Source: Acutalibacteraceae bacterium (GTDB lineage: Bacteria > Bacillota > Clostridia > Oscillospirales > Acutalibacteraceae). From it: a stretch of 44,456 nt of DNA. Below are positions 13,498-44,456 of this stretch, one piece after another. The stretch spans positions 1 to 44,456 of the forward strand of contig JAZQWD010000082.1 of NCBI GenBank assembly GCA_045632165.1. The letters are read 5' to 3'. Each line of letters begins with the position of its first letter. The stretch's first letter is position 1. Both the position numbers and the translations under genes were made by a program. The notes under the pieces are model-generated. The model was not told the origin of the DNA. It made no database searches and was given only the letters and a program-made list of their open reading frames with translations.

Positions 13498-13503
13498 TAT
13501 AGC

Positions 13504-14388
13504 TTACCTCCCATACCCTTGGTTGTGTCGCACATAGCTACCGATTATAAGAATTATAAGACCGATAAGCACTAAAATAAACGCAAAATATACCCAACCC
13601 ATTGCCGAAGCATAGCCGTGCATACCGTATTTTATAGTCTGCTCAGAGATATACTCAAGCACCTGATTAGAACTGTCGGTAAATGAAGCAATAACCGTAT
13701 AAACCAAATTAAGCAGTACGATTGGCGAAACCATTGGAAGTGTAATTTTCCAAAAAATTTCATAAGCGTTTGCGCCGTCAATTTTTGCCGATTCATATAA
13801 TGCGGGTGAAATGCCAAGTATTGCCGACAAAAACAAAATTATTTGTACACTGCTTTGCCACAAAAGGCGAATAATTGAACTGAAAAGCATATCTAAAAGT
13901 TCTACAATACTGCTGCCAAGGTATAATAACCATTCACGCGGTATAATACTGCTGTTTGCAAGGGAAATAATTTGTTCATCAACACCCTGTGTCAAAAGCT
14001 GTGTCATTACCTCACCCGTACCAAGCACAAAGGGTAAAATAAATGCCACACGAAAAAAACCTTTACCACGGTCGATTTTACTTAACATAACCGCCAAAAT
14101 AAGTGAAAAAATCACTATTAAGGGTGAATTAATAAGTGTAGACTTAATAACCTCTAACAACCTTGGTACAAAATTTACATCTTCAAAAAACGCTTTTTTA
14201 TAATTTCCAAAGCCCTCAACTAAAATTGAAAAGCCAGTTTTGGTGGGATCTAAATCACCAAAGCTTAAAAGCAATGAAGAAATAACAGGAAATAGAAAAA
14301 ATATGCAAATACCTATCAAAAATGGTGACAGGTAAAACAAGCCTATAAGCTTATCCTTTGTTTGCCTTGAAATTTTTATTTGTTTCAT
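13504..14388 (-). CDS. Carbohydrate ABC transporter permease (CUT1, MalF-like), second pair
   Basis: It has the EAA loop LYESAKIDGANAYEIFWKITLPMVSP and the typical N-terminus LFYLSPFLIGICIFFLFPV. Confidence 0.85.
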   Translation of the reverse strand: MKQIKISRQTKDKLIGLFYLSPFLIGICIFFLFPVISSLLLSFGDLDPTKTGFSILVEGFGNYKKAFFEDVNFVPRLLEVIKSTLINSPLIVIFSLILAVMLSKIDRGKGFFRVAFILPFVLGTGEVMTQLLTQGVDEQIISLANSSIIPREWLLYLGSSIVELLDMLFSSIIRLLWQSSVQIILFLSAILGISPALYESAKIDGANAYEIFWKITLPMVSPIVLLNLVYTVIASFTDSSNQVLEYISEQTIKYGMHGYASAMGWVYFAFILVLIGLIILIIGSYVRHNQGYGR

Positions 14389-18784: not shown

Positions 18785-18814
18785 ACCGAAAAATCCTTTC
18801 CGTTGCATTCCTAA

Positions 18815-24871: not shown

Positions 24872-24886
24872 TATTTTCACCTTTCT

Positions 24887-26488: not shown

Positions 26489-29400
26489 TTAAGCGCGCTT
26501 TTTCTTAAAGATAATTATACCTGCTACTGTGCCGCCTGCTACAATTAAAATAGCTGCAACCACAATAATGGCAATAACTACAACGGGTAATTTACCCTTT
26601 TCCTTAACGTTGGTATCATCGTTCTTTTCGGTTTCATCATCGCTGCCTTCGGTAAGCTTGATATAATTTTCAATATCCTCTTCGCTTCTGAAAGCGCCTG
26701 CCCATTTAACGTAAACAGTGTCGCCTTCCTGCGCAAGTGTGTCAGAAACCAAGTCAAGCTTCAATGCGCTCCAATTGCCGTCAAAGAAGAATGCGGCAGT
26801 GGGGTCTGCAGTACAGTCAATAATAACGGTTTGCCATTCGCTTGTGGGATTATAGCCCAAAAGCTTAACCTGACAGTCAGCCGATTCAATATCGTCTGCA
26901 AGATATTTTTCAACTGAATAGGTTGTGCGGTAATGTGCCCAACCGCCTGTAAGACTATCCTTTGAAAGCTTAACACGTAATGCGATAAAGGGATAATCGG
27001 TTGCCTTAAGATTAGCATTAACAGGTATTTTATCTCCTAAAATGACACGACCTGGTGTAACAGTAACCGCGCCGTCTTCGTTAGTATCGGTTACAGTTAC
27101 CTTCATAGCATTAGCGGCAAAGTCATATTCAAACTTGGTGTCGCCTGCGACTGATACGTGGTTGTTTATAACGTCACCCTTTGAAAGATCCCAGAAGAAC
27201 TTTGTGGGTGCCTTGCCGTCGGGGTCAGTGGATGTGTTTTTCTTTGGATTTTCAATGCCCGCATATTCATAAGCATCATCAGCGCTTGCAAATACACCTG
27301 CCCATTGAATATAGAATACATCATCCTTTGTAGGAACAAGGTTAGTATCCATAAGCTTCATAATTAAGCCAAACCAAGTGCCTGTGTAGGCATCGTCATA
27401 AGCCTCATAGCCCTTGGCATCAATTATCATATATTGCCATTCATCAGTAGCGTTGTACTGTTCAATGGGAAGCTGTACACGGAATTTGGTAGGATATTTA
27501 GAATTTGTACCCGCCCAAACCGAATTAAGAACAGAGGAAACGTTCTTTGTCTTAATCTTCATTGCGAATACAGGATAATCAGCAACATTGATTGCTTCGC
27601 CACGATCATACAATGCAACAACACCTGCATTTTTATCCTTATAATTCTTAGGTTCTACCTTTAATGCTTTTTCGGTCTTGTCATAAGAAACCTTTGTGTT
27701 AGAGTTGCCGTCACCCGCTACGTCACCGTTTTCAATCCAACCTGTTGTGTCAAACGACTGTGTAAAGTTATAGAAGAAAGGCGAGGGGTTGGGGTCAACA
27801 TATTCGGGCGGTACTTCCATACCTGCATAGGTGTAAGCATCCTTTGCGGTTTTAAATGCGCCTGCCCATTTAATAAATACGTAATCCTTTTCAGTCGGAA
27901 CTGCTTTTTCACCCAAAAGTCTTAAAAGGAAGCCGTCCCAATTACCTGTATAATATTCATTTTTAAAGTTTGTACCGTCAAACAACAAAAGTTGCCATTC
28001 GTTGTTGTGCTTATAGGTCTTAAGCACGTTTGAAATCATAAACTTGCTTCCGCCGTCGGGACGGTCGGTACCGGGTAATAAGCCACCAAGTGCACGGTCG
28101 GGGTTATTAAGCTTAACCATAACCGCCATAACGGGATATTCCTTAACCGAAACGGTTGCGTTTGCAAGAATTGAAAGTCGGCCTGCCTTAATATTTTCAG
28201 TGTCGGCTGCGCCAAGCTTTAAGGCTTTTTCGGTATCGTCATAAGCAAATGCTGTATTAGAACCGCCTTCAGCAAAAATTATTTTATTACCAAGCCAAAC
28301 ATTTGTATCAATCTTATTTGAGAAATCATAGAAGAAAGGTGGTGTAAGTTCTTCTTCTTCAACAGGTTTTTCCATATCAGCATAAGCGTAAACATCGTCA
28401 ACAGTCTTAAATGCGCCTGCCCACTGAATCCAGAATGCTTCACCTTGAGTTGCTAACTCAGAGTCGGTAAGCAAACGGAAAAGCATCGCTTTCCATTGAC
28501 CCTTAAAACCCTTATTGCCTGCGTTATCAAGAATAATAAGTTGCCAATCGCCTGTGGTTGCGTGGGTTGATTGATTTAAAAGGTCAGGACCGGAATAAAC
28601 ATATTTTTCACCGCTGTTTTGGGTGCCTGCCCATATGCCTGCAAACCCTTCATTTTTGGTGTTAACCTTAATCTTAACCGCATAAATGGGATAATCTGCA
28701 GTGTTTGTGGTTGTATTATTAGCTTCAATTGCTAATCTTGCTGCTTGACCCTTTGTAAAATCTTGTGGTGAAATTTTAAGTGCACGTTTTACAGGGTCGT
28801 ATGTAAATACGGTATTACCGCCGCCTCCACTGTGAATCGGTATACCGGTTTTACTCTTTATGTATGATATAGTAGTAGCGTGGTCACTAAAGTTATAGAA
28901 AAATCCTGATGGATCTTCCTTTCCGCTACCGTCCCCTATTTCAGAAGTTTCGGCACCGTCAAGACCAAAGGACTTAATATAATACTGTTCGGCTTCTTCG
29001 GTTGTCTTAAATGCGCCTGCCCATTCTACCCAACAAACATCATCTTCGGTAGGAGTAACGTTATTCGCCATAAGACGAACAATCATACCGTACCATTGAC
29101 CCGAATAATATGTATCGGTTGATTTTCTTCCATCATATAAAAGTAATTCCCAATCACCTGTACGGCTGTAGGTTTGGCAAACATCCTTTGCCTTATACTT
29201 ACTTGAAGAGCCGTTATTGTAAGTACCCGGCCAAATGCCACCAAAAGGACGGGTTGTATTTTTAGTCTTAATTTTAATTGCAATTACGGGGTATTCCTTA
29301 ACCTCGATACCTGCATTGTTTGAACGAATTTCAAAACGCGCAGCATCAACTGCGGTTAAATCCTTAGGAGAAATTTTAACAGCGCCTTCGGTTGCATCGT

Positions 29401-30646
29401 AAGCAACTGTGGTGTTTTTACAGTCGCCTGCACCGATTTTGCCGTTTTTAATGTAAGCTGCAGCGTCATCAGCGTCGCTGAAATTATAAAGGAAGGGTGA
29501 TTCAGTTTCGCCGTAAGCGCAAGCTTCCTCAACTGTTTGGAAAACGCCTGCCCATTGAATCCACATAGCATCGCCTGCAGTTGCGGTAACATTATTGGCT
29601 GCTAAAGCACCAAGTATGGTGTTCCAAACGCCGCCATATTTCGGATTATTCATGCTTGAACCGTCAAATACAATTAACTGCCAATCGCCCGTTTCGGCAA
29701 TATCAGCTGCAACATAGCCTGTGCCGTAAATACTGCCGCCTTGACCGTGGTCACAGCCCGCAGCCATACCGCCGAAATTAAGGGCAGGGTTAGAAAATTT
29801 AACCTTCATAGCCATTACGGGGTATTTCGCAACTGTAGCCGCTTTGTTGCCGCCTGTAGGAATTCTGAAACGGTTAGCGTTTGTACCGGTTGATGTAATT
29901 TTAACTGCGCCTTCGTTTGTGTCGTAAGCAATGGTTGTACCGGCATCGTTAACAAGTCGGCCGTCTGCCATAAGCTTTTCAGCATCAGTTTTTTCAGTAA
30001 AATCATAAAAGAAAGGTGTGGGCGCCATTGAAGTATCATAAGCGTAAACCTCTTCAACCGACTTAAACACGCCTGCCCATTGAATCCAAGTATAGTCAGT
30101 ATCATTAGGAACATCGGCATCAGCCATTAAACGAACAATAATGCTGTCCCATTGGCCCTTATATCCTGCTCTGTCAGAATTTGTGCCATCATATATAATT
30201 AATTCCCAAGTACCTGTACGGTTGTATGTTGTACAAACATCACCGCTGGAATAAATGCTTGACTGACCGCTGTTTTTTGTGCCGGGCCAAATACCGCTGG
30301 TATTGCGGTTGCGGTTATTTGCCTTAACCTTAAATGCAATTACAGGGTAATCAGCCACGTTTGTGGTTTTGTTAGCCATACCCATTGTAAACTGACAAGC
30401 CTTGTTTTTTGTGATGTCTTTAGGTGAAACCTTAAGGGCTTGTTCCTGAGCATCATACTCAAACTTAGTGTTACCATTAAATTCAAGTATTCTAAGGCCA
30501 ACCCATTTGTCAGTTTCGGCTTTAGTTGTAAAATTATAAAGCGCGGGGGAAGTTGTAGCAGTTTCATTTGCAAACGTTGTAAAAGATACTGCGCAGCAGG
30601 TAGCAACTAATGCTACTACACATAAAATCGCTAATAGTTTTTTCAT
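26489..30646 (-). CDS. 1385-aa cell-surface protein: signal peptide, 7 tandem domains of about 175-200 aa from an unrecognised family, an acidic linker and a C-terminal TM anchor
   Basis: The signal peptide is MKKLLAILCVVALVATCCAVSFTTFA/NE. There are seven copies of a module with four recurring elements: PFFY(N/D)F at its start, YP(V/I)xAxK(V/I)K, W(E/Q)L(I/L)(I/L)(Y/F)DG, and a terminal W(I/V)(Q/E/K)WAG(V/A)F(K/Q)(S/T)xE(E/D)xYxY. The C-terminus is KEKGKLPVVVIAIIVVAAILIVAGGTVAGIIIFKKKRA. An AGGAGG RBS is present. Confidence 0.85.
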   Translation of the reverse strand: MKKLLAILCVVALVATCCAVSFTTFANETATTSPALYNFTTKAETDKWVGLRILEFNGNTKFEYDAQEQALKVSPKDITKNKACQFTMGMANKTTNVADYPVIAFKVKANNRNRNTSGIWPGTKNSGQSSIYSSGDVCTTYNRTGTWELIIYDGTNSDRAGYKGQWDSIIVRLMADADVPNDTDYTWIQWAGVFKSVEEVYAYDTSMAPTPFFYDFTEKTDAEKLMADGRLVNDAGTTIAYDTNEGAVKITSTGTNANRFRIPTGGNKAATVAKYPVMAMKVKFSNPALNFGGMAAGCDHGQGGSIYGTGYVAADIAETGDWQLIVFDGSSMNNPKYGGVWNTILGALAANNVTATAGDAMWIQWAGVFQTVEEACAYGETESPFLYNFSDADDAAAYIKNGKIGAGDCKNTTVAYDATEGAVKISPKDLTAVDAARFEIRSNNAGIEVKEYPVIAIKIKTKNTTRPFGGIWPGTYNNGSSSKYKAKDVCQTYSRTGDWELLLYDGRKSTDTYYSGQWYGMIVRLMANNVTPTEDDVCWVEWAGAFKTTEEAEQYYIKSFGLDGAETSEIGDGSGKEDPSGFFYNFSDHATTISYIKSKTGIPIHSGGGGNTVFTYDPVKRALKISPQDFTKGQAARLAIEANNTTTNTADYPIYAVKIKVNTKNEGFAGIWAGTQNSGEKYVYSGPDLLNQSTHATTGDWQLIILDNAGNKGFKGQWKAMLFRLLTDSELATQGEAFWIQWAGAFKTVDDVYAYADMEKPVEEEELTPPFFYDFSNKIDTNVWLGNKIIFAEGGSNTAFAYDDTEKALKLGAADTENIKAGRLSILANATVSVKEYPVMAVMVKLNNPDRALGGLLPGTDRPDGGSKFMISNVLKTYKHNNEWQLLLFDGTNFKNEYYTGNWDGFLLRLLGEKAVPTEKDYVFIKWAGAFKTAKDAYTYAGMEVPPEYVDPNPSPFFYNFTQSFDTTGWIENGDVAGDGNSNTKVSYDKTEKALKVEPKNYKDKNAGVVALYDRGEAINVADYPVFAMKIKTKNVSSVLNSVWAGTNSKYPTKFRVQLPIEQYNATDEWQYMIIDAKGYEAYDDAYTGTWFGLIMKLMDTNLVPTKDDVFYIQWAGVFASADDAYEYAGIENPKKNTSTDPDGKAPTKFFWDLSKGDVINNHVSVAGDTKFEYDFAANAMKVTVTDTNEDGAVTVTPGRVILGDKIPVNANLKATDYPFIALRVKLSKDSLTGGWAHYRTTYSVEKYLADDIESADCQVKLLGYNPTSEWQTVIIDCTADPTAAFFFDGNWSALKLDLVSDTLAQEGDTVYVKWAGAFRSEEDIENYIKLTEGSDDETEKNDDTNVKEKGKLPVVVIAIIVVAAILIVAGGTVAGIIIFKKKRA
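26660..30547 (-). repeat. Seven tandem protein-domain repeats (period 525-600 nt) inside the surface-protein gene
   Basis: The WxxWAG codon block (plus-strand gcctgcccaNNNNNNcca-like) occurs at 30071, 29546, 29015, 28415, 27860, 27296 and 26696. The spacings are 525, 531, 600, 555, 564 and 600 nt. Confidence 0.85.
30010..30646 (-). repeat. Left arm of an inverted duplication (5-prime end and first domain of the repeat-protein gene)
   Basis: The reverse complement aligns colinearly with 43098-43735. By eye, identity is roughly 80-88 percent. Exact runs of about 19-29 nt include atgaaaaaactattagcgattttatgt, gaaactgctacaacttcccccgcgcttta and ggtatggctaacaaaaccacaaa. Confidence 0.8.
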
Positions 30647-30667
30647 ATTTACGCCTCCTATTTTAAT

Positions 30668-31630
30668 TTATATGTAATTTGAAATATCGTGCTTGTTTTG
30701 TTTCATAAACGCAACTACATCTTCTATAATGGGCAGACTTGGTTGTGCACCCATACATGAAACGGTAATGCCTGCTGTGTGGTTAGCAAACAAAAGGGCT
30801 TGCTCTACCGTGTCACCAAGACAAATTGCGGTACAAAAAGCGCCCACAAAGCTGTCGCCTGCAGCGGTAGGGTCAACTGTTATGCCAAAATCGACAGATG
30901 GACTTGACCAAAAGTTGCCTTCATTTGCAAAAACTGCGCCCTGCTTACCCATTGTGATAAGCACGTTTTTAACACCTTTATCAAGTAAAATCTGTGCGGC
31001 CGCCTTCGCCGATGAAATATCCTTAACGGCAACACCCGTCATATCGGAAGCTTCATGCTCGTTAGGTGATATATATGTAAGGCATTTAAGCAGCTCATCA
31101 GGAAGCGGTGCCGACGGTGCCGAGTTGAGCATCACCGGAACACCCTTTTCAAAAGCTAACTTTGCCACTGCAACATTAACATCCATCGGTATTTCAAGCT
31201 GCAAAATCACCATATCATATTTTGAAATTATATCTTTCAAAAAACAAATTTCATCAGGTGTTATATCCATATTGGCACCGGGAATTACCATAATACGATT
31301 AGCTGTGCCATTTTCCGTAACTTCAAGCTGAATATTACCAACCGCGGTTGAGCAAGTGTCTGAAAATAATACGTTGCTTGTATCAACCTGTGAATCCTCT
31401 AGCGAACGTAATATTTGCCGTCCAAAATCATCACGGCCCAGCTTTCCAACCATAGATACTTTTGCACCAAGACGAGCCGCCTGTACAGCTTGATTAGCGC
31501 CTTTTCCACCGGGGGCAGTTGCAAAGCTTGTGCCCAGTACCGTTTCACCGCTTTGCGGAAAACGGCTTGCAGAACAAATCAAGTCCATCACAAAACTGCC
31601 AACCACTAATATTTTAGGAGATTTTTTCAA
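30668..31630 (-). CDS. rbsK: Ribokinase (PfkB family)
   Basis: It closely resembles E. coli RbsK along its whole length. Matching blocks are GSFVMDL...FPQSGETVLG..F..APGGKGANQAVQAARLG, NSAP, ISPNEHEA and DPTAAGDSFVGAF. The start is TTG with a GGGGGAG RBS. This is the first gene of the long minus-strand array, 21 nt upstream of the repeat-protein gene. Confidence 0.8.
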   Translation of the reverse strand: MKKSPKILVVGSFVMDLICSASRFPQSGETVLGTSFATAPGGKGANQAVQAARLGAKVSMVGKLGRDDFGRQILRSLEDSQVDTSNVLFSDTCSTAVGNIQLEVTENGTANRIMVIPGANMDITPDEICFLKDIISKYDMVILQLEIPMDVNVAVAKLAFEKGVPVMLNSAPSAPLPDELLKCLTYISPNEHEASDMTGVAVKDISSAKAAAQILLDKGVKNVLITMGKQGAVFANEGNFWSSPSVDFGITVDPTAAGDSFVGAFCTAICLGDTVEQALLFANHTAGITVSCMGAQPSLPIIEDVVAFMKQNKHDISNYI

Positions 31631-31688
31631 ATCAAATTCACTCCCCCATCGTTATTTTATTCAAATATACCATATTTTCGCAAAAAAG

Positions 31689-31703
31689 TCTCGCCATTAT
31701 GCA
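31689..31703 (-). promoter_or_regulatory. Candidate shared operator or promoter element TGCATAATGGCGAGA (read on the minus strand), upstream of the ribokinase-led array
   Basis: The same sequence, GCA(A/T)AATGGCGAGA with 13/14 identical, occurs in the matching orientation at 40727-40740, upstream of the SIS/FucU/BNR/repeat-protein operon. It is GC-rich against an AT-rich intergenic background. Confidence 0.3.
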
Positions 31704-31710
31704 ACTAATG

Positions 31711-31739
31711 ATGGACATTTTTTGTCTTTTGTGTTATAA
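31711..31739 (+). promoter_or_regulatory. Sigma-A-type promoter for the AraC gene (TGGACA, 17-nt spacer, TATAAT, with a TGn extension)
   Basis: tggaca (31711-31716) is followed by a 17-nt spacer ending in tgt, then tataat (31734-31739). The GAGGTGA RBS and TTG start lie just downstream. Confidence 0.45.
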
Positions 31740-31758
31740 TGCACTTGAGGTGAAAGAT

Positions 31759-32670
31759 TTGGCAATACAAGAAATAAGACAATACCAAAACAATTTTGAA
31801 GTTTGGCACTCAATCTATACGAATATGACTTTTTTAGCACACCAACACACTGAAGTTGAACTAATTCGTGTGCGTTCGGGTACATCATGCATAACTGTGA
31901 ATAATCAGGTGTTTTCCCTCAAAGAAGGTGACCTGCTTTTATGCCAAAGCGGAAGTATTCATTTTAGCGATTCTACTGAGGTTAAAAACGAACTTGAATT
32001 TTTGATTTTTAACCCCGCACTTGTTAAAAGCCGACATGCGACTTTATCACTATCTACGCGTCTTTTCACTGCGGAAAAACTTAAAAGATATAATATGCTG
32101 ACTGCCACCCAGAAACTTTTCAGCGAGATTTCTTCAGAACTTGCTGCGCGTGATGTTTTTTATGAAAAAATCGTACTCAACACACTTCAAACCTTTTTAT
32201 GTAAATTACAACGTTATTCGCCTGTTTTATCATCAGATGAAACTGAAACACTGGTTAAACATTCCCCTTTTATATCAGAAGCCATACATTATATGGAAGC
32301 ACACCTTTCCGAAGAACTCACTCTTGAACAAGTAGCAGCAAACATTAATCTTGAAGCTGGCTATTTTTCGCGTATTTTCAAGCAGTATGTTGGTTTGAAT
32401 TTTGTAAAATATCGCAACCTACTGCGAATCAATAATGCAATACTTTTACTACAAGAAACAAATAAATCAATAAGCGATATTGCATATGATTGCGGTTTCC
32501 AAAACATACGAACCTTTAACAGAGTTTTCTTACAATACACCCAAAAAAATCCAATGGATTTTCGCCGCGATCCAGAACTTGTTTGCCCCGTTAATCTTCA
32601 CCCGCACAAGAAAAACTCGGTTTCAATTGAGGTTATTGGCGATTCGCCAGTTGTTATGTTTGATAATTAA
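31759..32670 (+). CDS. AraC family transcriptional regulator, divergent from the 24-kb array
   Basis: The C-terminal HTH pair reads VAANINLEAGYFSRIFKQYVGLNF...ISDIAYDCGFQNIRTFNRVFLQYTQKNPMDF. I prefer TTG 31759 (GAGGTGA RBS 5 nt upstream) over the track ATG at 31699, which would lie upstream of the predicted -10 element. Confidence 0.8.
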   Translation: MAIQEIRQYQNNFEVWHSIYTNMTFLAHQHTEVELIRVRSGTSCITVNNQVFSLKEGDLLLCQSGSIHFSDSTEVKNELEFLIFNPALVKSRHATLSLSTRLFTAEKLKRYNMLTATQKLFSEISSELAARDVFYEKIVLNTLQTFLCKLQRYSPVLSSDETETLVKHSPFISEAIHYMEAHLSEELTLEQVAANINLEAGYFSRIFKQYVGLNFVKYRNLLRINNAILLLQETNKSISDIAYDCGFQNIRTFNRVFLQYTQKNPMDFRRDPELVCPVNLHPHKKNSVSIEVIGDSPVVMFDN

Positions 32671-32860: not shown

Positions 32861-32894
32861 TCAACTGTAAAAATGTACGGTGGAGGTCCTTAGA

Positions 32895-34756: not shown

Positions 34757-34786
34757 ATAAGATATTATTTTTAAGGAGAATGAACT

Positions 34787-35734: not shown

Positions 35735-35767
35735 ATATAACTATCATACTGCAAAGGAGTATATTAA

Positions 35768-38581: not shown

Positions 38582-38600
38582 TTGTGTAAAGGAGTAAAAA

Positions 38601-39752: not shown

Positions 39753-40607
39753 GTGGGAATTTTATTAATATTTTTAAGTGTTTGTTCCAATTTATTGGAA
39801 GGCGTAATCGTTAAGAAAAACGGCCAAAAAAACGAAACAAATGTATTTTGGTTTAATGCATTAATGGCATTAGCTTCAATGCTGTTTTTCGCAGTTACTG
39901 AAACAGATGGTTTTGCCATTCCAGCTGAATTGTGGCTTTATGCAATACCATCGGCCTGTTGTTATTGCAGTGCGCTTATTTGCACCTATTTTGCTTTGGC
40001 AGAAGGGTCGTTTGCGATTTCAATGATGGTTATATCCTATTCAATTGTTTTACCGGTTGTATATGGTATGGCCTTTTTAAAGGAACCGGTTTCTTGGTTA
40101 ACTTGCATTGCGTTGGTCATAATGCTTGCTTCACTATATTTAACAAGAGAAGATACATCTAAAGATAGCAACAAATTTTCATTTAAATGGCTCATTTTGA
40201 TAACTCTAGCAACCGTAGGAAGCGGCTTCTTTGCAATTTTCAAAAAAATGCAGCAACTACGCTTTGAAGAAAAATGTAATAACGAATTTATGATTTTATC
40301 ACTTGGCATAACCGTGCTAGTACTTTTTGTGCTTGGCCTTCTCAAGAGGAAGAAAAACGCAAAAAGCATTAATGCAAAAACTGTTTTAATTGCATTGGGT
40401 GCAGGGTTTTCCAACGGCATTACCAATATGCTTACACTGCTAATCAACACTGTTATGGAATTGTCGATTTCCTCCCCCATTAGTACCGGTATGCGAATAG
40501 TTCTTTCATTTATAGTTTCTAACCTTTTCTTGCACGAAAGGTTTTTAAGACGACAAATTGTTGGTGTTATATTAGGTGCCGTTTCACTTTTAATGTTAAG
40601 TATATAA
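39753..40607 (+). CDS. DMT superfamily (EamA-like) membrane transporter, about 10 TM
   Basis: The 284-aa protein is strongly hydrophobic and has two similar halves. The GTG start follows an AAAGGTG RBS. Confidence 0.6.
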   Translation: MGILLIFLSVCSNLLEGVIVKKNGQKNETNVFWFNALMALASMLFFAVTETDGFAIPAELWLYAIPSACCYCSALICTYFALAEGSFAISMMVISYSIVLPVVYGMAFLKEPVSWLTCIALVIMLASLYLTREDTSKDSNKFSFKWLILITLATVGSGFFAIFKKMQQLRFEEKCNNEFMILSLGITVLVLFVLGLLKRKKNAKSINAKTVLIALGAGFSNGITNMLTLLINTVMELSISSPISTGMRIVLSFIVSNLFLHERFLRRQIVGVILGAVSLLMLSI

Positions 40608-40661: not shown

Positions 40662-40726
40662 ATTAAGAATAAAACCAAAAGCGAGCATTTAAGTCATATA
40701 AAAACAAAAAATGTCCATCACAAGTA

Positions 40727-40740
40727 GCAAAATGGCGAGA
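40727..40740 (+). promoter_or_regulatory. Second copy of the GCA(A/T)AATGGCGAGA element
   Basis: gcaaaatggcgaga lies immediately upstream of the predicted promoter of the SIS-led operon. It matches the minus-strand copy at 31689-31702. Confidence 0.3.
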
Positions 40741-40744
40741 ATAT

Positions 40745-40773
40745 TTGAAAAAAATATGTTATATTTGTATAAA
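40745..40773 (+). promoter_or_regulatory. Sigma-A-type promoter (TTGAAA, 17-nt spacer, TATAAA) for the SIS/FucU/BNR/repeat-protein operon
   Basis: ttgaaa (40745-40750) is followed by a 17-nt spacer and tataaa (40768-40773). Confidence 0.4.
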
Positions 40774-40850
40774 AGATAATGTATCAATTAGACTTTCAAC
40801 CAAATTTGCTTTGGTATGAAATTCTATTTTTCAAAAAAAGGGTGATGTTT

Positions 40851-41447
40851 ATGTCTTGTTTTGAAACGTTTAAAAACACCATTGCAACCGAAATGGATGC
40901 TGCTCTTGCCAATATAAACGAAGATATATTTCTTCCGGCAGCCCAAATCATTTGGGATGCTGAAAAAAACGGCAACCGAATACATATAACCGGTATAGGT
41001 AAGCCTGCCCACATTGCAGGCTATATATCATCACTAATGTCTTCAACTGGCACACCAACATATTTTTTACATGGTACCGAAGCTGTTCACGGCTCTTGTG
41101 GTCAGTTACGCGAAGGCGACGTTGTAATTTGTATTTCAAACAGTGGTGAAACTGCCGAGCTTAAAGCAACTGCTTTGGCTATAAGAAATAATGGCTGCAA
41201 GGTTATTGGCGTTACAGGTAATCCGCAATCATGGTTGGCACAATTTGCCGATGCGCATTTAACTGCCGCAATTACTAATGAAGGCGGTCCATTGAACCGT
41301 GCACCACGTGCATCAATTTTAGTAGAAACACTTATACTTCAGGCACTTTCAGTTATTTTACAGGAAAAGCGCGCCATTACCCCACAAGAATATGTTAAAC
41401 GCCATCCCGGCGGCGCACTTGGTCAGCTTCGTGAAAACGAAAAGTAG
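40851..41447 (+). CDS. KdsD/KpsF/GutQ-family sugar-phosphate isomerase (arabinose-5-phosphate-isomerase-like), SIS domain only with no CBS pair
   Basis: [41 protein letters not shown] and the C-terminal [10 protein letters not shown] match the E. coli KdsD blocks [41 protein letters not shown] and SHPGGALGRKLL. The protein ends right after the SIS domain. I prefer ATG 40851 (GGGTGA RBS) over the track start at 40779. Confidence 0.7.
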   Translation: [198 protein letters not shown]

Positions 41448-41459
41448 GGAGAGATAGAT

Positions 41460-41891
41460 ATGCTTAAAGGAATTCCAACCGTACTAAACCCCGAACTTTT
41501 AAAAATTCTTATGGAAATGGGTCACGGCGATACATTAGTTATCGGCGATGGAAACTTTCCCGCTGCAACCTATGCAAAAAGACTTGTAAGATGCGACGGT
41601 CAAACCGTACCCCAAATGCTTGATGCTATTTTAAAGCTTTTCCCACTTGATACACCCGATACCCAGCCTGTTTGCGTAATGCAAACTTCCGACGGTATGG
41701 AAACTCCACCCGTATGGGCTGATTTTAAAGCAGTCATTGAAAAGCACGAGCCCAACGGCCGAGAATTGACCGAAATTGAACGCTTTGCATTTTATGAAAA
41801 AGCCAAAAATGCTTATGCGATTGTCACAACAGGCGAAACCGCCCTTTTTGCAAACATACCCATTAAAAAAGGTGTTGTTATTGAAAAATAA
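41460..41891 (+). CDS. fucU: RbsD/FucU family sugar mutarotase/pyranase (FucU-like)
   Basis: MLKGIPTVLNPELLKILMEMGHGDTLVIGDGNFPA...ERFAFYEKAKNAYAIVTTGE closely parallels E. coli FucU (..[27 protein letters not shown]...RFAFYERAQKAFAIVITGE). Confidence 0.75.
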   Translation: MLKGIPTVLNPELLKILMEMGHGDTLVIGDGNFPAATYAKRLVRCDGQTVPQMLDAILKLFPLDTPDTQPVCVMQTSDGMETPPVWADFKAVIEKHEPNGRELTEIERFAFYEKAKNAYAIVTTGETALFANIPIKKGVVIEK

Positions 41892-41947
41892 TTTCAACAC
41901 CTACACATATAATTATATAATATCCCGAAAGGCTTTGGTGAAGCACT

Positions 41948-43072
41948 ATGGAAAACGAAGTTAAAAAAGAAGTCAAAGTCCGCGAAATTACCATTTTTGA
42001 TGGTAACGAGGGTTGGGTACATAATGATCATATGTACCGCCTTGCCTGTGCAGTGCAAATTGTTCAGGCACCCGACGGCTCGTTAATTGCGGGTTGGATG
42101 ACAGGCGGTAACATGGAACCCGCTGACGACCACATTGCAGTTTGCGCCCGTTCTTATGACGGTGGTGAAACCTGGACCGAGCCCGAAGTTTTACTCGGCG
42201 AAGGCGATGGAAACGGTGCAGCTGGTATTTTTGAAATTGATGGTCGCCTTTACCAAATGGCAGCCCGTTGGGAAGATAATTACGGCGTTTGGAAATATGT
42301 TCGCCGCGAATCGCTTGACAACGGTAAAACTTGGATTAATGAAGTGCCCGTTAAAATTATTGAAGGCGAAGGACTTTCATCATCATTAGGCAATTTCATC
42401 CGTTTGCAAAACGGTGAACTTATATGTGCAGTAAACACAATGCAGCTTCGCGATAAGCCCCTTGAGGCAGGTGTTGAACGCTTAGTTTACGCTAAAACCG
42501 AAGAAGAAGCTGCTGCAATGTCACCCCGTACCGAAGACGAAACACACGCACTTTGGATGGATAAGTACATCTACGGTATGGCAACTGCATTAGTTAGTGA
42601 AGATTTAACAAAATTTACCCCATTGGGTGGTTTTGCTAACCGTCCGCTCGGCCTGCTGGAAGGTCAGATAATCCAGCTTAAGAACGGAAACCTTGCTATG
42701 ATAGTAAGAGCTGAATGGGGTGGATTCCTTTGGAGAAGCGACAGTACCGATAACGGACGTACCTGGTGCGACGCTTATCCGCTTGATATTCCTAACCCCA
42801 GTACCCTTGCAACCGTACTTCGCCTGCCCGATGGCAGAATTGCTTTGTTCCACAATGCAATTGGCGAATTCGGTAAAAAGTCCAGCCGAAACAGACTTTC
42901 AATTTGGGTCAGCAACGACGAAATGGAAAGCTGGTACATCAAAACTGATGTTATTTTTGGCGGACAAAACGCATACCCCTGCCCCTACGTCCTTCAGGAC
43001 GGCCGCGTAGTCTTTACCTATGATAAGGACAGACGCATGGCAAAATTTGTCGAGGTTACAATACCCGATTAA
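41948..43072 (+). CDS. BNR/Asp-box sialidase-fold beta-propeller protein, cytoplasmic
   Basis: Asp-boxes are SYDGGETWT, SLDNGKTWI, STDNGRTWC and a degenerate SNDEMESWY. There is no signal peptide and no F/YRIP motif. Confidence 0.7.
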   Translation: MENEVKKEVKVREITIFDGNEGWVHNDHMYRLACAVQIVQAPDGSLIAGWMTGGNMEPADDHIAVCARSYDGGETWTEPEVLLGEGDGNGAAGIFEIDGRLYQMAARWEDNYGVWKYVRRESLDNGKTWINEVPVKIIEGEGLSSSLGNFIRLQNGELICAVNTMQLRDKPLEAGVERLVYAKTEEEAAAMSPRTEDETHALWMDKYIYGMATALVSEDLTKFTPLGGFANRPLGLLEGQIIQLKNGNLAMIVRAEWGGFLWRSDSTDNGRTWCDAYPLDIPNPSTLATVLRLPDGRIALFHNAIGEFGKKSSRNRLSIWVSNDEMESWYIKTDVIFGGQNAYPCPYVLQDGRVVFTYDKDRRMAKFVEVTIPD

Positions 43073-43097
43073 CAAAAAATTATTGGAGGTTTTTATT

Positions 43098-43735
43098 ATG
43101 AAAAAACTATTAGCGATTTTATGTACAATAGCATTAATTGCTACCTGCTGCGCAGTTTCCTTCACCGCGTTTGCAGCTGAAACTGCTACAACTTCCCCCG
43201 CGCTTTACAATTTTACTACTAAAGCTGAAACTGATAAATGGGTTGGTCTTAGAATACTTGAATTTAACGGTAACACCAAATTCGAGTATGATGCCGAACA
43301 ACAAGCCCTTAAGGTTTCACCTAAGGATATTACAAAACCCAAAGCTTGCCAATTTACACTTGGTATGGCTAACAAAACCACAAATGTATCTGACTATCCT
43401 GTAATTGCTTTTAAGGTTAAGGCAAATAACCGTACCCGTAACACCTGCGGTATTTGGCCGGGTACAAAGGTTGAGGGCAGAAGCATTTATTCCTGTGGTG
43501 ATGTTTGCACATTCTATGACCGCACAGGTAACTGGGATTTAATTATTTATGATGGCTCAAAGGCAAACCTTGCAGGCTATGAAGGTAAATGGGACAGCAT
43601 TATTGTTCGCTTAATGAGCGATTCTGAAATCCCCAACGAAACCGACTACACTTGGATTCAATGGGCAGGCGTATTTAAGAGCGTTGAAGACGTTTACGCT
43701 TATGATACCAGCATGGCACCTTCCCCCTTCTTCTA
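43098..43735 (+). repeat. Right arm of the inverted duplication (pairs with 30010-30646)
   Basis: See the left arm. The first domain is about 80-85 percent identical at protein level. Identity drops to roughly 55-60 percent in the second domain. Confidence 0.8.
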
Positions 43736-44456
43736 TGATTTCAGAGATGCTACTGAAGGTCAAAACCTTATTGCTGACGGTCGTGTTTACAGCGACGGCA
43801 ATACCAATACTGCTATATCATACGATACAAATGAAAATGCTGTAAAAATTGCTTCTAAAGGCACTAACGCAAACAGATTCTTCTTCGATAGTAAAATCAA
43901 TACAACAAGAGGCGCAACCGTTGCCGATGTTAAAAAATACCCTGTTTTTGCTATGAAGGTTAAGTTTTCTAACCCAAGTCTTAACTTCGGCGGTATCGTA
44001 CCCGGTACCTGTAGCTCGGCCGGTGAACTTTGCGGATATGTTGCTACCGATACAGTTGAAACCGGTGCTTACCAAATTATTGTTTGGGATGGTTCAAATT
44101 ATTCACATAACCGCTGGAACAATGCTTGGAAGCGTGTTCTTGGTGCATTAGCGCCCAATGGCACAACCCCAACTACCAATGACTGTATGTGGGTTCAGTG
44201 GGCAGGTGTATTTGAGAGTGTTGAAGATGCTTACGCTTACGATACCGATTGCGCATCTCCCTACTTCTACAATTACGAAGATGAAACCGATATACAAAAA
44301 TTAATGGCTAAAAAATACATCATAGCTGAAAATAATGTTGCTTTTAGCTATAACGCAACAGAACAAGCATTAGAAATTAATCCAACCGATGTTGGTGCCA
44401 AATCTAACCATCGTTTCTCTGTTATTCCTACCGCCCGCACAACACCTGTTGCAACT
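43098..44456 (+). CDS. Paralogue of the tandem-repeat surface protein, partial (453 codons, continues beyond the right edge)
   Basis: An ATG follows the GGAGG RBS. Translation gives MKKLLAILCTIALIATCCAVSFTAFAAETATTSPALYNFTTKAETDKWVGLRILEFNG... and the frame stays open to the window end. The WIQWAG and WVQWAG motifs are at 43653 and 44190. The ORF is not in the track because it has no stop in the window. Confidence 0.85.
   Translation, partial: MKKLLAILCTIALIATCCAVSFTAFAAETATTSPALYNFTTKAETDKWVGLRILEFNGNTKFEYDAEQQALKVSPKDITKPKACQFTLGMANKTTNVSDYPVIAFKVKANNRTRNTCGIWPGTKVEGRSIYSCGDVCTFYDRTGNWDLIIYDGSKANLAGYEGKWDSIIVRLMSDSEIPNETDYTWIQWAGVFKSVEDVYAYDTSMAPSPFFYDFRDATEGQNLIADGRVYSDGNTNTAISYDTNENAVKIASKGTNANRFFFDSKINTTRGATVADVKKYPVFAMKVKFSNPSLNFGGIVPGTCSSAGELCGYVATDTVETGAYQIIVWDGSNYSHNRWNNAWKRVLGALAPNGTTPTTNDCMWVQWAGVFESVEDAYAYDTDCASPYFYNYEDETDIQKLMAKKYIIAENNVAFSYNATEQALEINPTDVGAKSNHRFSVIPTARTTPVAT

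What the first reader, a model, noticed from the sequence alone, without database searches (positions are those of the whole stretch)
40851..43072. API-like SIS isomerase, FucU/RbsD pyranase and a sialidase-fold protein, with rbsK and the aldolase elsewhere: a possible Kdo to D-arabinose to pentose-phosphate route
The SIS protein matches the KdsD/KpsF arabinose-5-phosphate isomerase blocks (STGTPxxF(L/V)HxxEAx[15 protein letters not shown]) but lacks the CBS pair, and here it sits in a catabolic context. The pieces combine into a coherent hypothetical pathway.
- A sialidase-fold hydrolase would release a 2-keto-3-deoxy sugar acid. Kdo hydrolases are known to use this fold.
- The DHDPS-family aldolase (11591-12514) would split it into pyruvate plus an aldose. 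Kdo aldolase activity, EC 4.1.2.23, yields D-arabinose.
- An RbsD/FucU-type pyranase would supply the furanose form.
- The ribokinase homologue (30668-31630) would phosphorylate O5.
- The API-like enzyme would convert arabinose-5-P to ribulose-5-P.
The rbsK-led and SIS-led operons also share the GCA(A/T)AATGGCGAGA element. This is inference from gene content only. A ribose-based or sialic-acid-like alternative is not excluded.
Basis: inference. Interest (0 to 1): 0.65.

Follow-up and report, generated by a model that had tools for sequence, protein, structure and literature searches.

The report
Predicted Kdo and D-arabinose catabolic genes
Three adjacent genes of a gut Clostridia sugar-utilisation locus, plus an altered ribokinase and an aldolase elsewhere in the window, form a gene set that stays together across many related genomes and most likely breaks down D-arabinose released from the acid sugar Kdo, a route whose genes I found described nowhere.

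Summary
40851-43072 encodes three proteins:
- a 198-aa SIS-only protein of the KpsF/GutQ/KdsD type, with all five KdsD active-site residues and no CBS pair;
- an RbsD/FucU-family protein;
- a cytoplasmic protein with a GH33 sialidase fold and catalytic set.

Comparative genomics now supports its core. In 80 species-level genomes carrying the SIS protein:
- the ribokinase-like gene lies directly upstream in 76;
- an RbsD/FucU gene lies downstream in 52;
- a distinctive DHDPS aldolase lies nearby in 37;
- a SiaP-like TRAP transporter lies nearby in 27;
- YhcH lies nearby in 18.

Three separate signs point to D-arabinose:
- GH172 genes, a family with proven D-arabinofuranosidases, precede the pair in 9 genomes;
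- fucose/D-arabinose isomerase follows the same aldolase type in 5 other loci;
- the kinase family has replaced ribokinase's ribose-contacting Asn14.

In the window the ancestral operon was duplicated in inverted orientation and split.

Still inferred: that the acid sugar is Kdo, and that the sialidase-like protein releases it. That gene is linked only in close relatives, and the aldolase family usually lies away from kinase and SIS. Ten literature searches found no published gene assignment.

The parts
40700..40774 (+). Promoter/operator region of the SIS operon.
   Evidence: Inverted repeat I3, 75 nt, 83%. The same region is conserved upstream of SIS in L012 and upstream of the kinase in L011. 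The motif occurs 2 times against 0.08 expected.
40851..41447 (+). SIS-only KpsF/GutQ/KdsD-type sugar-phosphate isomerase, 198 aa. Predicted D-arabinose-5-phosphate to D-ribulose-5-phosphate isomerase working in the catabolic direction.
   Evidence: Pfam SIS only. TIGR00393 131 bits over the SIS part. PDB 5uqi, 3etn, 2xhz. K59, H88, E111, E152 and H193 (KdsD numbering) invariant in 59/59 family members.
41460..41891 (+). RbsD/FucU-family protein, FucU-like. Predicted pyranase/mutarotase supplying the ring form used by the kinase.
   Evidence: PF05025 144 bits. FucU model 118 bits (cut-off 141) and RbsD model 42 bits (cut-off 93). An RbsD/FucU gene follows SIS in 52/80 genomes. Where the window's FucU-like query detected it directly downstream, it is RbsD-like in 28 and FucU-like in 5.
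41948..43072 (+). Cytoplasmic six-bladed propeller with the GH33 sialidase catalytic set. Candidate exo-ulosonidase (Kdo-ase or similar). Its substrate is not shown.
   Evidence: BNR_2. Model pLDDT 95. Best fold matches are GH33 sialidases, TM 0.7, 14-18% identity. R31 (46/54), D61, E238, R254, R314 (54/54) and Y343 (53/54) conserved. R31, E238 and R254 align with the YRIP, LTE and FMR segments of NanI. No signal peptide.
43098..44456 (+). 5' part of a secreted repeat protein, cut by the window end. Paralogue of 26489-30646.
   Evidence: Inverted repeats I1, I2, I4: 372 nt at 87%, 334 nt at 75%. Signal-peptide-like N-terminus. No Pfam hit.
39753..40607 (+). EamA / RbsU-GlcU-type sugar permease just upstream. 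It is followed by a weak hairpin and a T-run seen by eye.
   Evidence: PF00892, and PF06800 'Sugar transport protein' at 27.6 bits. Conserved upstream of SIS in L001-L003 and L012. The hairpin was not picked up by the terminator scan.
31655..31729 (-). Promoter/operator region of the kinase-led operon. It overlaps the divergent araC promoter.
   Evidence: I3. TTGCGA-18-TAAAAT on the minus strand and TGGACA-17-TATAAT (11/12) on the plus strand.
30668..31630 (-). Ribokinase-family kinase with an altered sugar pocket. Predicted D-arabinose 5-kinase.
   Evidence: TIGR02152 301.5 bits against a cut-off of 299.65. About 40% identity to solved ribokinases. Asn14 is Val here and Val/Met/Gly in 54/54 family members. 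Arg109 is invariant. D16, G41, G42, K43, N46, E143 and D255 are kept. Directly upstream of SIS in 76/80 genomes.
31699..32670 (+). AraC-family regulator, divergent from the kinase. Probable regulator of both promoter copies.
   Evidence: Pfam HTH_18, HTH_AraC, AraC_binding. An AraC gene lies within 9 kb in 11/80 genomes, usually divergent from the kinase, including L011.
26489..30646 (-). Secreted 1385-aa repeat protein directly downstream of the kinase.
   Evidence: Internal repeats D1-D3 of 525-600 nt, and inverted repeats to 43097-43996. No Pfam hit.
11591..12514 (-). DHDPS-family class I aldolase of a distinct 'type A' subfamily. Predicted ulosonic-acid (Kdo) aldolase giving pyruvate plus D-arabinose.
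   Evidence: PF00701. No equivalog threshold reached. Tyr141 and Schiff-base Lys169 kept, with the C-x-S-S-E, SGHT and YECP motifs shared with aldolases directly upstream of kinase-SIS. Nearest tree neighbour is L014, which is kinase-SIS-adjacent.
10643..11587 (-). Second cytoplasmic BNR_2 propeller (314 aa) next to the aldolase. Two Arg, the Tyr and the Asp are kept, Glu is replaced by Gln, and the first Arg is not conserved.
   Evidence: PF13088 222 bits. Residue comparison. Homologues next to type A aldolases in L014, L024, L058 and in 11/61 metagenome loci.
10169..10627 (-). YhcH/YjgK/YiaL protein, of the N-acetylneuraminate-anomerase type.
   Evidence: PF04074 143 bits. NF040884 103 bits, cut-off 160. 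Present in 18/80 SIS loci and 11/61 aldolase loci.
12532..14388 (-). Two ABC permease genes upstream of the aldolase.
   Evidence: BPD_transp_1. The same order perm-perm-aldolase occurs in L014, L091, L094, L096-L098.
23597..24880 (-). Lipoprotein with a BNR_2 / BT_1020-like propeller (extracellular) inside the kinase-led gene string.
   Evidence: PF13088 and PF24067. Lipoprotein signal ...LSALAGCGG.

Best explanation
The three genes are the downstream half of a split catabolic operon of a ruminant-gut Oscillospiraceae bacterium.

Proposed sequence of steps:
1. Oligosaccharides carrying a terminal ulosonic acid are imported by the ABC systems of the locus.
2. A cytoplasmic sialidase-type propeller (41948-43072 and/or 10643-11587) frees the acid sugar.
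3. YhcH supplies its open form.
4. The type A DHDPS aldolase (11591-12514) cleaves it to pyruvate plus D-arabinose. That makes the acid sugar Kdo.
5. The RbsD/FucU protein (41460-41891) interconverts ring forms.
6. The altered ribokinase (30668-31630) makes D-arabinose 5-phosphate.
7. The CBS-less KpsF-type SIS protein (40851-41447) isomerises it to D-ribulose 5-phosphate for the pentose-phosphate pathway. This is Kdo biosynthesis run backwards.

Both operon halves keep a copy of one AraC-associated promoter region and are probably co-regulated.

Shown here: gene identities, catalytic residues, conserved gene order, and the duplication.
Inferred: every substrate, the order of steps, and the regulation.

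My confidence by tier:
- Kinase and SIS form one pentose-phosphate-feeding module: about 0.85.
- Its sugar is D-arabinose: about 0.7.
- In this window it is fed by Kdo cleavage: about 0.5.
- The 374-aa propeller is the Kdo-releasing enzyme: about 0.3.
For: Gene linkage:
- In 80 GTDB species genomes with a SIS homologue (58-85% identity), the kinase lies directly upstream on the same strand in 76, with gaps of 4-202 nt.
- Within 9 kb: RbsD/FucU 52, DHDPS aldolase 37, TRAP DctM 27, YhcH 18, IclR 16, DUF2961/GH172 9.
- The close relative L011 has the unsplit order araC< kinase-SIS-FucU-BNR-big protein.

Enzyme features:
- SIS keeps K59, H88, E111, E152 and H193 in 59/59 members. Its closest solved relatives are two SIS-only proteins and the KdsD SIS domain.
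- The kinase family has lost ribokinase Asn14 (Val/Met/Gly in 54/54) but keeps the catalytic Asp255 and the rest of the pocket.

Signs of D-arabinose:
- GH172 contains proven exo-alpha-D-arabinofuranosidases (PMC10115798, PMC10509167).
- In 5 metagenome loci the same aldolase type is followed by, or lies in one operon with, an L-fucose/D-arabinose isomerase (all three FucI domains). It takes the place of kinase-SIS.
- FucI was found in none of the 80 SIS loci.

Signs of an ulosonic acid, and of Kdo:
- YhcH matches the N-acetylneuraminate anomerase model below its cut-off.
- The TRAP binding protein is named SiaP by NCBI. It is closest to PDB 4PF6 (40-45% identity), then to the SiaPs.
- GH78 and GH106 rhamnosidases sit next to type A aldolases. 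RG-II chain C is alpha-L-Rha-1,5-Kdo (PMC12282258).

Window-specific:
- Aldolase subtype and tree position.
- Duplicated promoter and tail.
- Short metatranscriptome contigs cover the SIS and FucU-like genes.
Against: - No biochemical datum exists for any of these proteins.
- The reverse test is weak. In 61 metagenome loci of 8 kb or more centred on type A aldolases, the kinase was seen once and SIS never. One aldolase clade sits among valS, folC and sigma-factor genes. The aldolase family may therefore hold several specificities, or its partner genes usually lie elsewhere.
- The 374-aa propeller is next to SIS only in near relatives. Homologues at 50-56% identity sit with other propellers and GFO/IDH/MocA genes instead.
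- The 314-aa propeller next to the aldolase lacks the Glu partner of the nucleophile and the first Arg.
- The SIS clade has invariant changes near the active site, including two new arginines (D90S, L91C, L158R, T161R). These could mean a substrate other than A5P.
- The kinase still scores as 'ribokinase' at the NCBIfam cut-off.
- FucI next to the aldolase could serve L-fucose from the same glycan rather than D-arabinose.
- GH172 also contains fructofuranosidases (my recollection).
Confidence: 0.55

Rival explanations
1. D-arabinose module not fed by Kdo in this organism. Kinase, SIS and FucU handle D-arabinose, or D-arabinofuranosides, taken up as such. The RbsU-like permease at 39753-40607 would do the uptake. 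The aldolase-BNR-YhcH genes 18-29 kb away process a different acid sugar whose aldose product goes elsewhere.
For: More than half of the 80 SIS loci have no aldolase within 9 kb. Some have GH172, or a monosaccharide-type ABC transporter with LacI, as in L042. Type A aldolases are mostly found without kinase-SIS. A sugar permease lies just upstream of SIS.
Against: The kinase heads the same co-directional gene string that contains the aldolase, the 314-aa BNR protein and YhcH. The window's aldolase is nearest to one that sits directly upstream of kinase-SIS. There is no GH172 gene in the window.
Confidence: 0.2
2. Another ulosonic acid pathway (Kdn, Neu5Ac, Dha or an unknown acid sugar). The kinase and SIS protein would act on the corresponding aldose and aldose phosphate, for example mannose and mannose 6-phosphate.
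For: The sialidase catalytic set, YhcH and the SiaP-like TRAP protein are all sialic-acid-type parts. SIS clade-specific changes near the active site. A BT_1020-like propeller is present in the locus; I recall that family as the Dha-releasing GH143. Some type A aldolases are followed by a 2-hydroxyacid dehydrogenase instead.
Against: No ROK-type kinase, NanE, NagA or NagB appears in the window. The kinase is of the pentose (ribokinase) type and SIS is of the A5P-isomerase type. GH172 and FucI both point to D-arabinose. Dha cleavage would give a C4 acid, not a kinase substrate of this type.
Confidence: 0.12
3. Ordinary ribose utilisation (RbsK plus RbsD), with the SIS protein as an unrelated passenger or a regulator-like sensor.
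For: The kinase reaches the ribokinase equivalog cut-off (301.5 against 299.65). RbsD/FucU is the classical partner of RbsK. Some loci carry a ribose-type ABC transporter.
Against: SIS is adjacent in 76/80 genomes and has no DNA-binding domain. Ribose 5-phosphate needs no KpsF-type isomerase. Asn14 is never kept. Other family members score below the ribokinase cut-off (287.6). RbsD/FucU scores fall below both equivalog cut-offs. The aldolase, TRAP and YhcH linkage is unexplained by ribose.
Confidence: 0.08
4. Biosynthetic or regulatory A5P isomerase. The SIS protein would make A5P for a cell-surface glycan or as a signal, as proposed for other APIs outside LPS synthesis.
For: All characterised KpsF/GutQ/KdsD enzymes work in, or next to, biosynthetic or regulatory settings (my knowledge). 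The reaction is freely reversible.
Against: No KdsA, KdsB, KdsC, glycosyltransferase or capsule genes are nearby in the window. The recurring neighbours in the 80 loci are transporters, hydrolases, an aldolase and sugar-responsive regulators.
Confidence: 0.03

Closest known systems
Sialic acid (nan) catabolic systems: sialidase, SiaPQM or NanT uptake, YhcH/NanQ anomerase, NanA aldolase, NanK kinase, NanE epimerase
   Same: Same logic and several homologous parts. A GH33-type propeller is present, together with a SiaP-like TRAP binding protein, YhcH and a DHDPS-family class I aldolase. The released aldose is then phosphorylated and converted to a central sugar phosphate.
   Different: The aldolase is a separate DHDPS subfamily (C-x-S-S-E, YECP) that reaches no NanA or DapA threshold. 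The kinase is ribokinase-type, not ROK. The last enzyme is a KpsF-type SIS isomerase, not NanE. An RbsD/FucU protein is added. No NagA or NagB is present.
SIS-only arabinose-5-phosphate isomerases: E. coli CFT073 c3406 (which I take to be PDB 5uqi), Bacteroides fragilis API (which I take to be 3etn) and Clostridium tetani CtAPI (Cech et al. 2017, J Bacteriol 199:e00246-17; reference seen, paper not readable here)
   Same: Single SIS domain of about 200 aa without CBS. Same active-site residues as KdsD. E 1e-26 to 1e-28 to 5uqi and 3etn.
   Different: This clade has invariant D90S, L91C, L158R and T161R. It is fixed next to a ribokinase-like gene in catabolic operons. Whether CtAPI belongs to this clade, or has the same neighbours, could not be checked. 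The assignment of these PDB codes to c3406 and the B. fragilis enzyme, their API activity, and CtAPI's unknown physiological role are from my memory.
rbsDACBK / rbsUDK ribose operons
   Same: A PfkB ribokinase-family kinase plus an RbsD-family pyranase. In some loci there is a ribose-type ABC transporter or an RbsU-like permease.
   Different: A KpsF-type isomerase is always present. The ribose-contacting Asn14 is replaced. The frequent partners are an aldolase, a TRAP system and YhcH.
Kinase-first D-arabinose fermentation of Propionibacterium pentosaceum: D-arabinokinase EC 2.7.1.54 and phosphoarabinoisomerase EC 5.3.1.13 (Volk, about 1960-62; from memory, not verified here)
   Same: Exactly the two reactions proposed for the kinase and the SIS protein.
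   Different: Known only as enzyme activities. My searches found no gene assigned to a bacterial D-arabinose 5-kinase.
Isomerase-first D-arabinose catabolism via L-fucose isomerase (E. coli; Dysgonomonas gadei PUL42, PMC10115798)
   Same: Same substrate. FucI appears behind the same aldolase type in 5 metagenome loci.
   Different: Non-homologous enzymes and a different order of steps. FucI is absent from the window and from all 80 SIS loci.
Kdo aldolase, EC 4.1.2.23 (Ghalambor and Heath 1966)
   Same: The reaction proposed for 11591-12514: Kdo to pyruvate plus D-arabinose.
   Different: A 2023 paper notes that no Kdo aldolase is annotated in the E. coli BW25113 genome (PMC10619137). The link to this DHDPS subfamily is my inference.
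GH33 exo-sialidases, KDNases and Kdo hydrolases
   Same: Six-bladed propeller, three Asp-boxes, and candidate Arg triad, Tyr/Glu pair and Asp.
   Different: Only 14-18% identity to any solved member. Cytoplasmic. No NCBIfam model matches. Substrate unknown. That Kdo hydrolases share this fold is from memory.

Membership tests
KpsF/GutQ/KdsD arabinose-5-phosphate isomerase (EC 5.3.1.13) | SIS domain most similar to the KpsF/GutQ subfamily | tested here: met
   PF01380 73.8 bits. The top NCBIfam hits are TIGR00393, KdsD and GutQ over the SIS part. PDB 5uqi, 3etn and 2xhz at E 1e-25 to 1e-28.
KpsF/GutQ/KdsD arabinose-5-phosphate isomerase (EC 5.3.1.13) | Active-site residues K59, H88, E111, E152 and H193 (E. 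coli KdsD numbering; the residue list is from memory) | tested here: met
   All five are present in the window protein and invariant in 59/59 family members.
KpsF/GutQ/KdsD arabinose-5-phosphate isomerase (EC 5.3.1.13) | Full-length family score / C-terminal CBS pair | tested here: not met
   131.5 bits against a cut-off of 203.7. Only profile positions 2-151 of 268 are matched. No CBS hit. The solved relatives 5uqi (198 aa) and 3etn (220 aa) are of SIS-only length too, so this feature is not needed for the fold.
KpsF/GutQ/KdsD arabinose-5-phosphate isomerase (EC 5.3.1.13) | Interconverts A5P and Ru5P | not testable with these tools
   Needs an enzyme assay. The clade-specific changes D90S, L91C, L158R and T161R leave room for a different substrate.
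Ribokinase (RbsK, TIGR02152) | Equivalog score | tested here: inconclusive
   The window protein scores 301.5 against a cut-off of 299.65. The family member from L084 scores 287.6, below the cut-off.
Ribokinase (RbsK, TIGR02152) | Ribose-contacting residues Asn14, Asp16, Gly42, Lys43, Asn46, Glu143 and catalytic Asp255 (list from memory of the E. coli structure) | tested here: not met
   Asn14 is Val in the window and Val 42 / Met 11 / Gly 1 among 54 members. The other residues are kept. There is an extra invariant Arg109.
RbsD/FucU (PF05025) | Family domain with the GHGD motif | tested here: met
   144 bits over the full length. MGHGDTLVIGDGNFP is in the translation.
L-fucose mutarotase FucU / D-ribose pyranase RbsD equivalogs | NCBIfam equivalog cut-offs | tested here: not met
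   FucU 118.2 against 141. RbsD 42.2 against 93. The commoner operon partner scores RbsD 57 and FucU 29.
GH33 sialidase-type exo-ulosonidase | Six-bladed beta-propeller with Asp-boxes | tested here: met
   Model pLDDT 95, pTM 0.92. Top 50 fold matches include solved sialidases and KDNases, TM 0.61-0.71. Asp-boxes SYDGGETW, SLDNGKTW and STDNGRTW are in the sequence.
GH33 sialidase-type exo-ulosonidase | Arg triad, nucleophile Tyr with Glu, and acid/base Asp | tested here: met
   R31 (46/54), D61, E238, R254, R314 (54/54) and Y343 (53/54). R31, E238 and R254 align with the YRIP, LTE and FMR segments of NanI. The other three are assigned by spacing only.
GH33 sialidase-type exo-ulosonidase | Hydrolyses a ketosidic bond of Neu5Ac, Kdn or Kdo | not testable with these tools
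   Needs assays on Kdo-, Kdn- and Neu5Ac-glycosides.
DHDPS/NanA class I pyruvate aldolases | Family domain with the Schiff-base Lys and the catalytic Tyr | tested here: met
   PF00701 84 bits. Y141 and K169 are invariant in the type A alignment.
N-acetylneuraminate lyase (NanA) or DapA equivalogs | Equivalog cut-offs and the G-x-T-G-E carboxylate motif | tested here: not met
   NanA models score 40.8 against 281 and 27.5 against 382. DapA scores 72.6 against 206. The motif is C-L-S-S-E.
Canonical nan sialic-acid cluster | NanK (ROK kinase) and NanE (ManNAc-6-P epimerase) | tested here: not met
   Neither appears among the Pfam hits of any window ORF.
Kdo biosynthesis cluster (KdsD with KdsA, KdsC, KdsB) | KdsA, KdsB or KdsC nearby | tested here: not met
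   None in the window, and none among the recurring neighbour families of the 80 loci that I scanned.

The most novel reading that the evidence does not exclude
This operon family supplies the missing genes for bacterial Kdo catabolism and for the kinase-first D-arabinose route: Kdo aldolase EC 4.1.2.23, D-arabinose 5-kinase EC 2.7.1.54, and a catabolic role for the CBS-less arabinose-5-phosphate isomerases of Gram-positive bacteria. It would imply that many gut Clostridia scavenge Kdo, shed from Gram-negative lipopolysaccharide and capsules or released from plant RG-II chain C, through a sialic-acid-like uptake and cleavage system.
Probability: 0.4. Interest if true: 0.8.

Novelty: new variant of a known kind. 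Interest (0 to 1): 0.68.

Why it matters
Kdo is in the lipopolysaccharide of nearly all Gram-negative bacteria and in plant rhamnogalacturonan II, so it is released constantly in guts. Yet ten full-text searches found no gene-level catabolic pathway for it.

- A 2023 paper still notes that no Kdo aldolase is annotated in the E. coli BW25113 genome (PMC10619137).
- The physiological role of arabinose-5-phosphate isomerases in bacteria without LPS has, as far as I recall, been open since CtAPI in 2017.

The gene set defined here gives testable candidates for each step. It occurs in at least 113 species-level genomes of gut Clostridia, including cultured strains. It would add Kdo and D-arabinose to the nutrients that shape gut communities. 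It would also correct widespread annotations such as 'ribokinase', 'SiaP', 'exo-alpha-sialidase' and 'dihydrodipicolinate synthase family'.

Tried and rejected
- Exact look-up of the FucU-like protein in the assembly index found nothing.
- Literature: ten full-text searches found no Kdo catabolic gene cluster and no bacterial D-arabinose 5-kinase gene. The CtAPI paper, Ndeh et al. 2017 and Vetting et al. 2015 are not held. CtAPI's clade and neighbours therefore could not be checked.
- PDB 4PF6: I recall that it holds bound KDO. I spent the last protein search, a structure model (pLDDT only 69) and a fold search to read the entry title, but the title is cut before the ligand. This stays unverified and carries no weight.
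- Riboswitch or other RNA upstream of SIS: no Rfam family and no tRNA in the window.
- The terminator scan did not pick up the hairpin after 40607.
- Reverse association from the aldolase: the kinase appeared in 1 of 61 loci and SIS in none. I therefore dropped the idea that type A aldolases are always partnered with kinase-SIS.
- Considered and rejected: a plain ribose operon; a canonical nan cluster; a biosynthetic KdsD; and L-rhamnose non-phosphorylative catabolism as the reason for rhamnosidase-aldolase linkage. For the last, no dehydrogenase/lactonase/dehydratase set was seen, and YhcH, BNR_2 and SiaP-like parts fit an ulosonic acid better.
- Transcript evidence is thin: a few 151-265-nt metatranscriptome contigs.

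Full report
WHAT IS THERE. The window is a 44-kb, roughly 40% G+C carbohydrate-utilisation locus. Its closest relatives are Oscillospiraceae/Clostridia genomes assembled from metagenomes of ruminant guts, and it recurs in bovine, goat and pig gut metagenomes.

The finding's coordinates hold three co-directional genes.
- 40851-41447 encodes a 198-aa protein, counted from the ATG behind a GGGTGA ribosome-binding site. Pfam finds only a SIS domain. Its best NCBIfam hits are KpsF/GutQ, KdsD and GutQ over the SIS part. Its closest solved relatives are the SIS-only proteins 5uqi and 3etn and the KdsD SIS domain 2xhz.
- 41460-41891 is an RbsD/FucU-family protein. It is closer to FucU than to RbsD but below both equivalog cut-offs.
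- 41948-43072 is a BNR_2 protein without a signal peptide.

THE DECISIVE EVIDENCE IS GENE ORDER ELSEWHERE. A scan of one genome per GTDB species with the SIS protein gave 113 relatives. The best 80 (58-85% identical) were fetched with flanks. They come from Oscillospiraceae, Acutalibacteraceae, Lachnospiraceae, Ruminiclostridium, Lawsonibacter, Oscillibacter and others. tblastn with window proteins and with cluster representatives shows the following.
- A homologue of the window's kinase lies directly upstream of SIS, on the same strand, in 76 of 80 loci. Gaps are 4-202 nt. Of the four exceptions, one contig starts just upstream of SIS (L025) and one has the split arrangement of the window (L012).
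- Within 9 kb there is an RbsD/FucU gene in 52, a DHDPS-family gene in 37, TRAP transporter genes in 27, YhcH in 18, IclR in 16, LacI in 20 and a DUF2961 gene in 9.
- The recurrent full operon is (YhcH) IclR DctP DctQ DctM aldolase kinase SIS RbsD (YhcH).

Their linkage is therefore real rather than accidental.

WHY THE WINDOW LOOKS SCATTERED. The near relative L011 has the unsplit order araC< kinase SIS FucU BNR big-protein. The window holds an inverted duplication.
- 31655-31729 matches 40700-40774 (75 nt, 83%).
- 29927-30647 matches 43097-43814 (372 nt at 87%, then 334 nt at 75%).

These segments are the promoter region and the 5' part of a large secreted repeat protein. One copy of this operon frame kept the kinase. 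The other kept SIS, FucU and BNR.

The region is also conserved upstream of SIS in L012 and upstream of the kinase in L011. It overlaps a strong divergent araC promoter. Co-regulation by the AraC protein at 31699-32670 is a reasonable inference, not a result.

WHICH SUGAR. Several independent lines point to D-arabinose.
1. The SIS family keeps all five KdsD active-site residues in 59 of 59 members.
2. The kinase family keeps the catalytic Asp255 and most of the ribokinase sugar pocket. It never keeps Asn14, which is Val in 42, Met in 11 and Gly in 1 of 54 members, and it has an invariant Arg109. Asn14 is a ribose contact in E. coli ribokinase (my memory). D-arabinose is the C2 epimer of D-ribose.
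3. In 9 genomes the pair is preceded by a DUF2961 gene. That family is GH172, in which exo-alpha-D-arabinofuranosidases have been demonstrated (PMC10115798, PMC10509167).
4. In metagenome loci found with the aldolase, five carry an L-fucose isomerase with all three domains, directly downstream of the aldolase in four and in the same operon in L149. [quoted passage not shown] FucI is absent from all 80 SIS loci. Kinase-SIS and FucU thus look like alternative fates of one aldolase product.
5. The slot after SIS is filled by either an RbsD-like or a FucU-like member of one family. D-arabinose is the C6-less analogue of L-fucose.

WHY AN ULOSONIC ACID, AND WHY KDO.
- The aldolase of the window and those upstream of the kinase share an unusual subfamily signature: C-x-S-S-E in place of G-x-T-G-E, plus SGHT, YECP and K-D-T. 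The Schiff-base Lys and the Tyr are intact, and no NanA or DapA threshold is reached.
- In a neighbour-joining tree the window's enzyme sits next to that of L014, which lies directly upstream of kinase-SIS.
- These aldolases travel with YhcH, which matches the N-acetylneuraminate anomerase model below its cut-off.
- They also travel with BNR_2 propellers and with a TRAP binding protein that NCBI names SiaP. Its closest solved relatives are 4PF6 (40-45% identity) and then the sialic-acid-binding SiaPs.
- Some loci add GH78 or GH106 alpha-L-rhamnosidases. RG-II chain C is alpha-L-Rha-1,5-Kdo (PMC12282258).

A carboxylated, ring-forming 2-keto-3-deoxy sugar whose aldol cleavage yields D-arabinose is Kdo. 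This step is inference.

I recall that 4PF6 was solved with bound KDO, but the entry title is cut off, so I give it no weight.

THE SIALIDASE-FOLD PROTEIN.
- With a 54-sequence alignment the model is confident (pLDDT 95). Its best fold matches are GH33 sialidases and KDNases (TM about 0.7, 14-18% identity).
- R31, D61, E238, R254, R314 and Y343 have the spacing of the sialidase Arg triad, acid/base Asp, Glu and nucleophile Tyr, and they are conserved.
- Three of them align with the corresponding sequence segments of C. perfringens NanI.
- It is therefore a credible cytoplasmic exo-ulosonidase.
- Its linkage to SIS holds only in close relatives. Homologues at 50-56% identity sit among other BNR_2/BT_1020-like propellers and GFO/IDH/MocA genes.
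- The 314-aa BNR_2 protein next to the aldolase is linked more widely. However, it has Gln for the Glu and no conserved first Arg.

Which of the two, if either, frees Kdo is open.

WHAT WEAKENS THE CASE.
- Starting from the aldolase, 80 metagenome loci were fetched. Among the 61 of 8 kb or more, the kinase was seen once and SIS never.
- The subfamily also occurs next to 2-hydroxyacid dehydrogenases, and in one clade among valS, folC and sigma-factor genes.
- Aldolases linked to kinase-SIS, to FucI and to rhamnosidases are interspersed in the tree. That fits one function with partner genes often elsewhere, as in this window, but it does not prove it.
- The SIS clade has four invariant substitutions near the active site, two of them new arginines.
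- No enzyme here has been assayed.

WHAT IS KNOWN.
- The three reactions exist as enzyme activities: Kdo aldolase EC 4.1.2.23 (Ghalambor and Heath 1966, cited), and D-arabinokinase and phosphoarabinoisomerase of Propionibacterium (my memory).
- Ten full-text searches found no gene cluster for Kdo catabolism and no bacterial D-arabinose 5-kinase gene.
- A 2023 paper states that no Kdo aldolase is annotated in E. coli BW25113.
- Published D-arabinan loci use, or are predicted to use, an isomerase and a kinase.

VERDICT. I rate this a new variant of a known kind: a sialic-acid-style catabolic system rebuilt around a ribokinase-type kinase and a CBS-less A5P isomerase. The kinase-SIS-pyranase-aldolase linkage and D-arabinose are well supported. 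Kdo and the role of the 374-aa propeller are plausible but unproven. Interest 0.68.

Noticed in passing
window 29927-30647 and 31655-31729 versus 43097-43814 and 40700-40774: Inverted duplication of an operon frame: the promoter region plus the 5' part of a big secreted protein. Genes were then lost reciprocally. One copy keeps the kinase and the other keeps SIS-FucU-BNR. L011 has the unsplit order.
   Followed up: yes
window 26489-30646 (-) and 43098-44456 (+): Large secreted paralogues built of 5-7 internal repeats of 525-600 nt, with a conserved core coding for WIQWAGVF. There is no Pfam hit. Homologues in relatives carry BT_1020-like/BNR_2 propellers or a faint DUF4979 hit.
   Followed up: partly
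window 1961-7617 (+) and 36674-39716 (+): Two sets of GtaA-like six-hairpin proteins (DUF4964-DUF5127) occur with GFO/IDH/MocA or GH109-like oxidoreductases. The first set also has xylose-isomerase-like TIM barrels. This resembles NAD-dependent, keto-intermediate glycoside cleavage modules. The two GtaA genes share stretches of 79-91% nucleotide identity.
   Followed up: no
window 32880-36490 (+): A second, divergent PfkB kinase, a class II ketose-bisphosphate aldolase, a 315-aa protein with no family hit and a PIG-L deacetylase lie downstream of the AraC gene. This may be a separate amino-sugar or ketose branch. It is absent from the relative L002, which has a HAD hydrolase there.
   Followed up: no
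window 40851-41447 and loci L011-L090: The SIS clade has invariant D90S, L91C, L158R and T161R (KdsD numbering) beside an otherwise intact API active site. The two extra arginines are unexplained.
   Followed up: partly
L113, L133, L139, L148, L164, L168, L170 and others: One clade of the same YECP-type DHDPS aldolase lies among valS, folC and a sigma-factor gene in human-gut contigs, far from any sugar genes. It may have a different role.
   Followed up: no
L101-L103, L106, L116, L123, L127: Type A aldolase is followed by a D-2-hydroxyacid dehydrogenase and IclR. It is often preceded by a second, canonical DHDPS aldolase and a GH78 rhamnosidase. This could be a branch for another acid sugar such as Dha.
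   Followed up: no
L008 1-11149: Seven tandem genes for BNR_2 / BT_1020-like propellers sit in one Clostridia contig, including two homologues of the 374-aa protein. This is an expansion of this hydrolase type.
   Followed up: no
window 31699-31762: The first ATG of the AraC ORF lies inside the conserved 75-nt region and upstream of a near-consensus promoter (TGGACA-17-TATAAT, 31712-31740). The real start is probably about 20 codons further down, matching the 302-aa homologue in L002.
   Followed up: partly
window 16655-18808 (-) and 14417-16618 (-): An NHL-repeat/TPR/Yip1 membrane protein and a DUF5696 protein are embedded between two ABC permease pairs in the kinase-led gene string. Their functions are unknown.
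   Followed up: no
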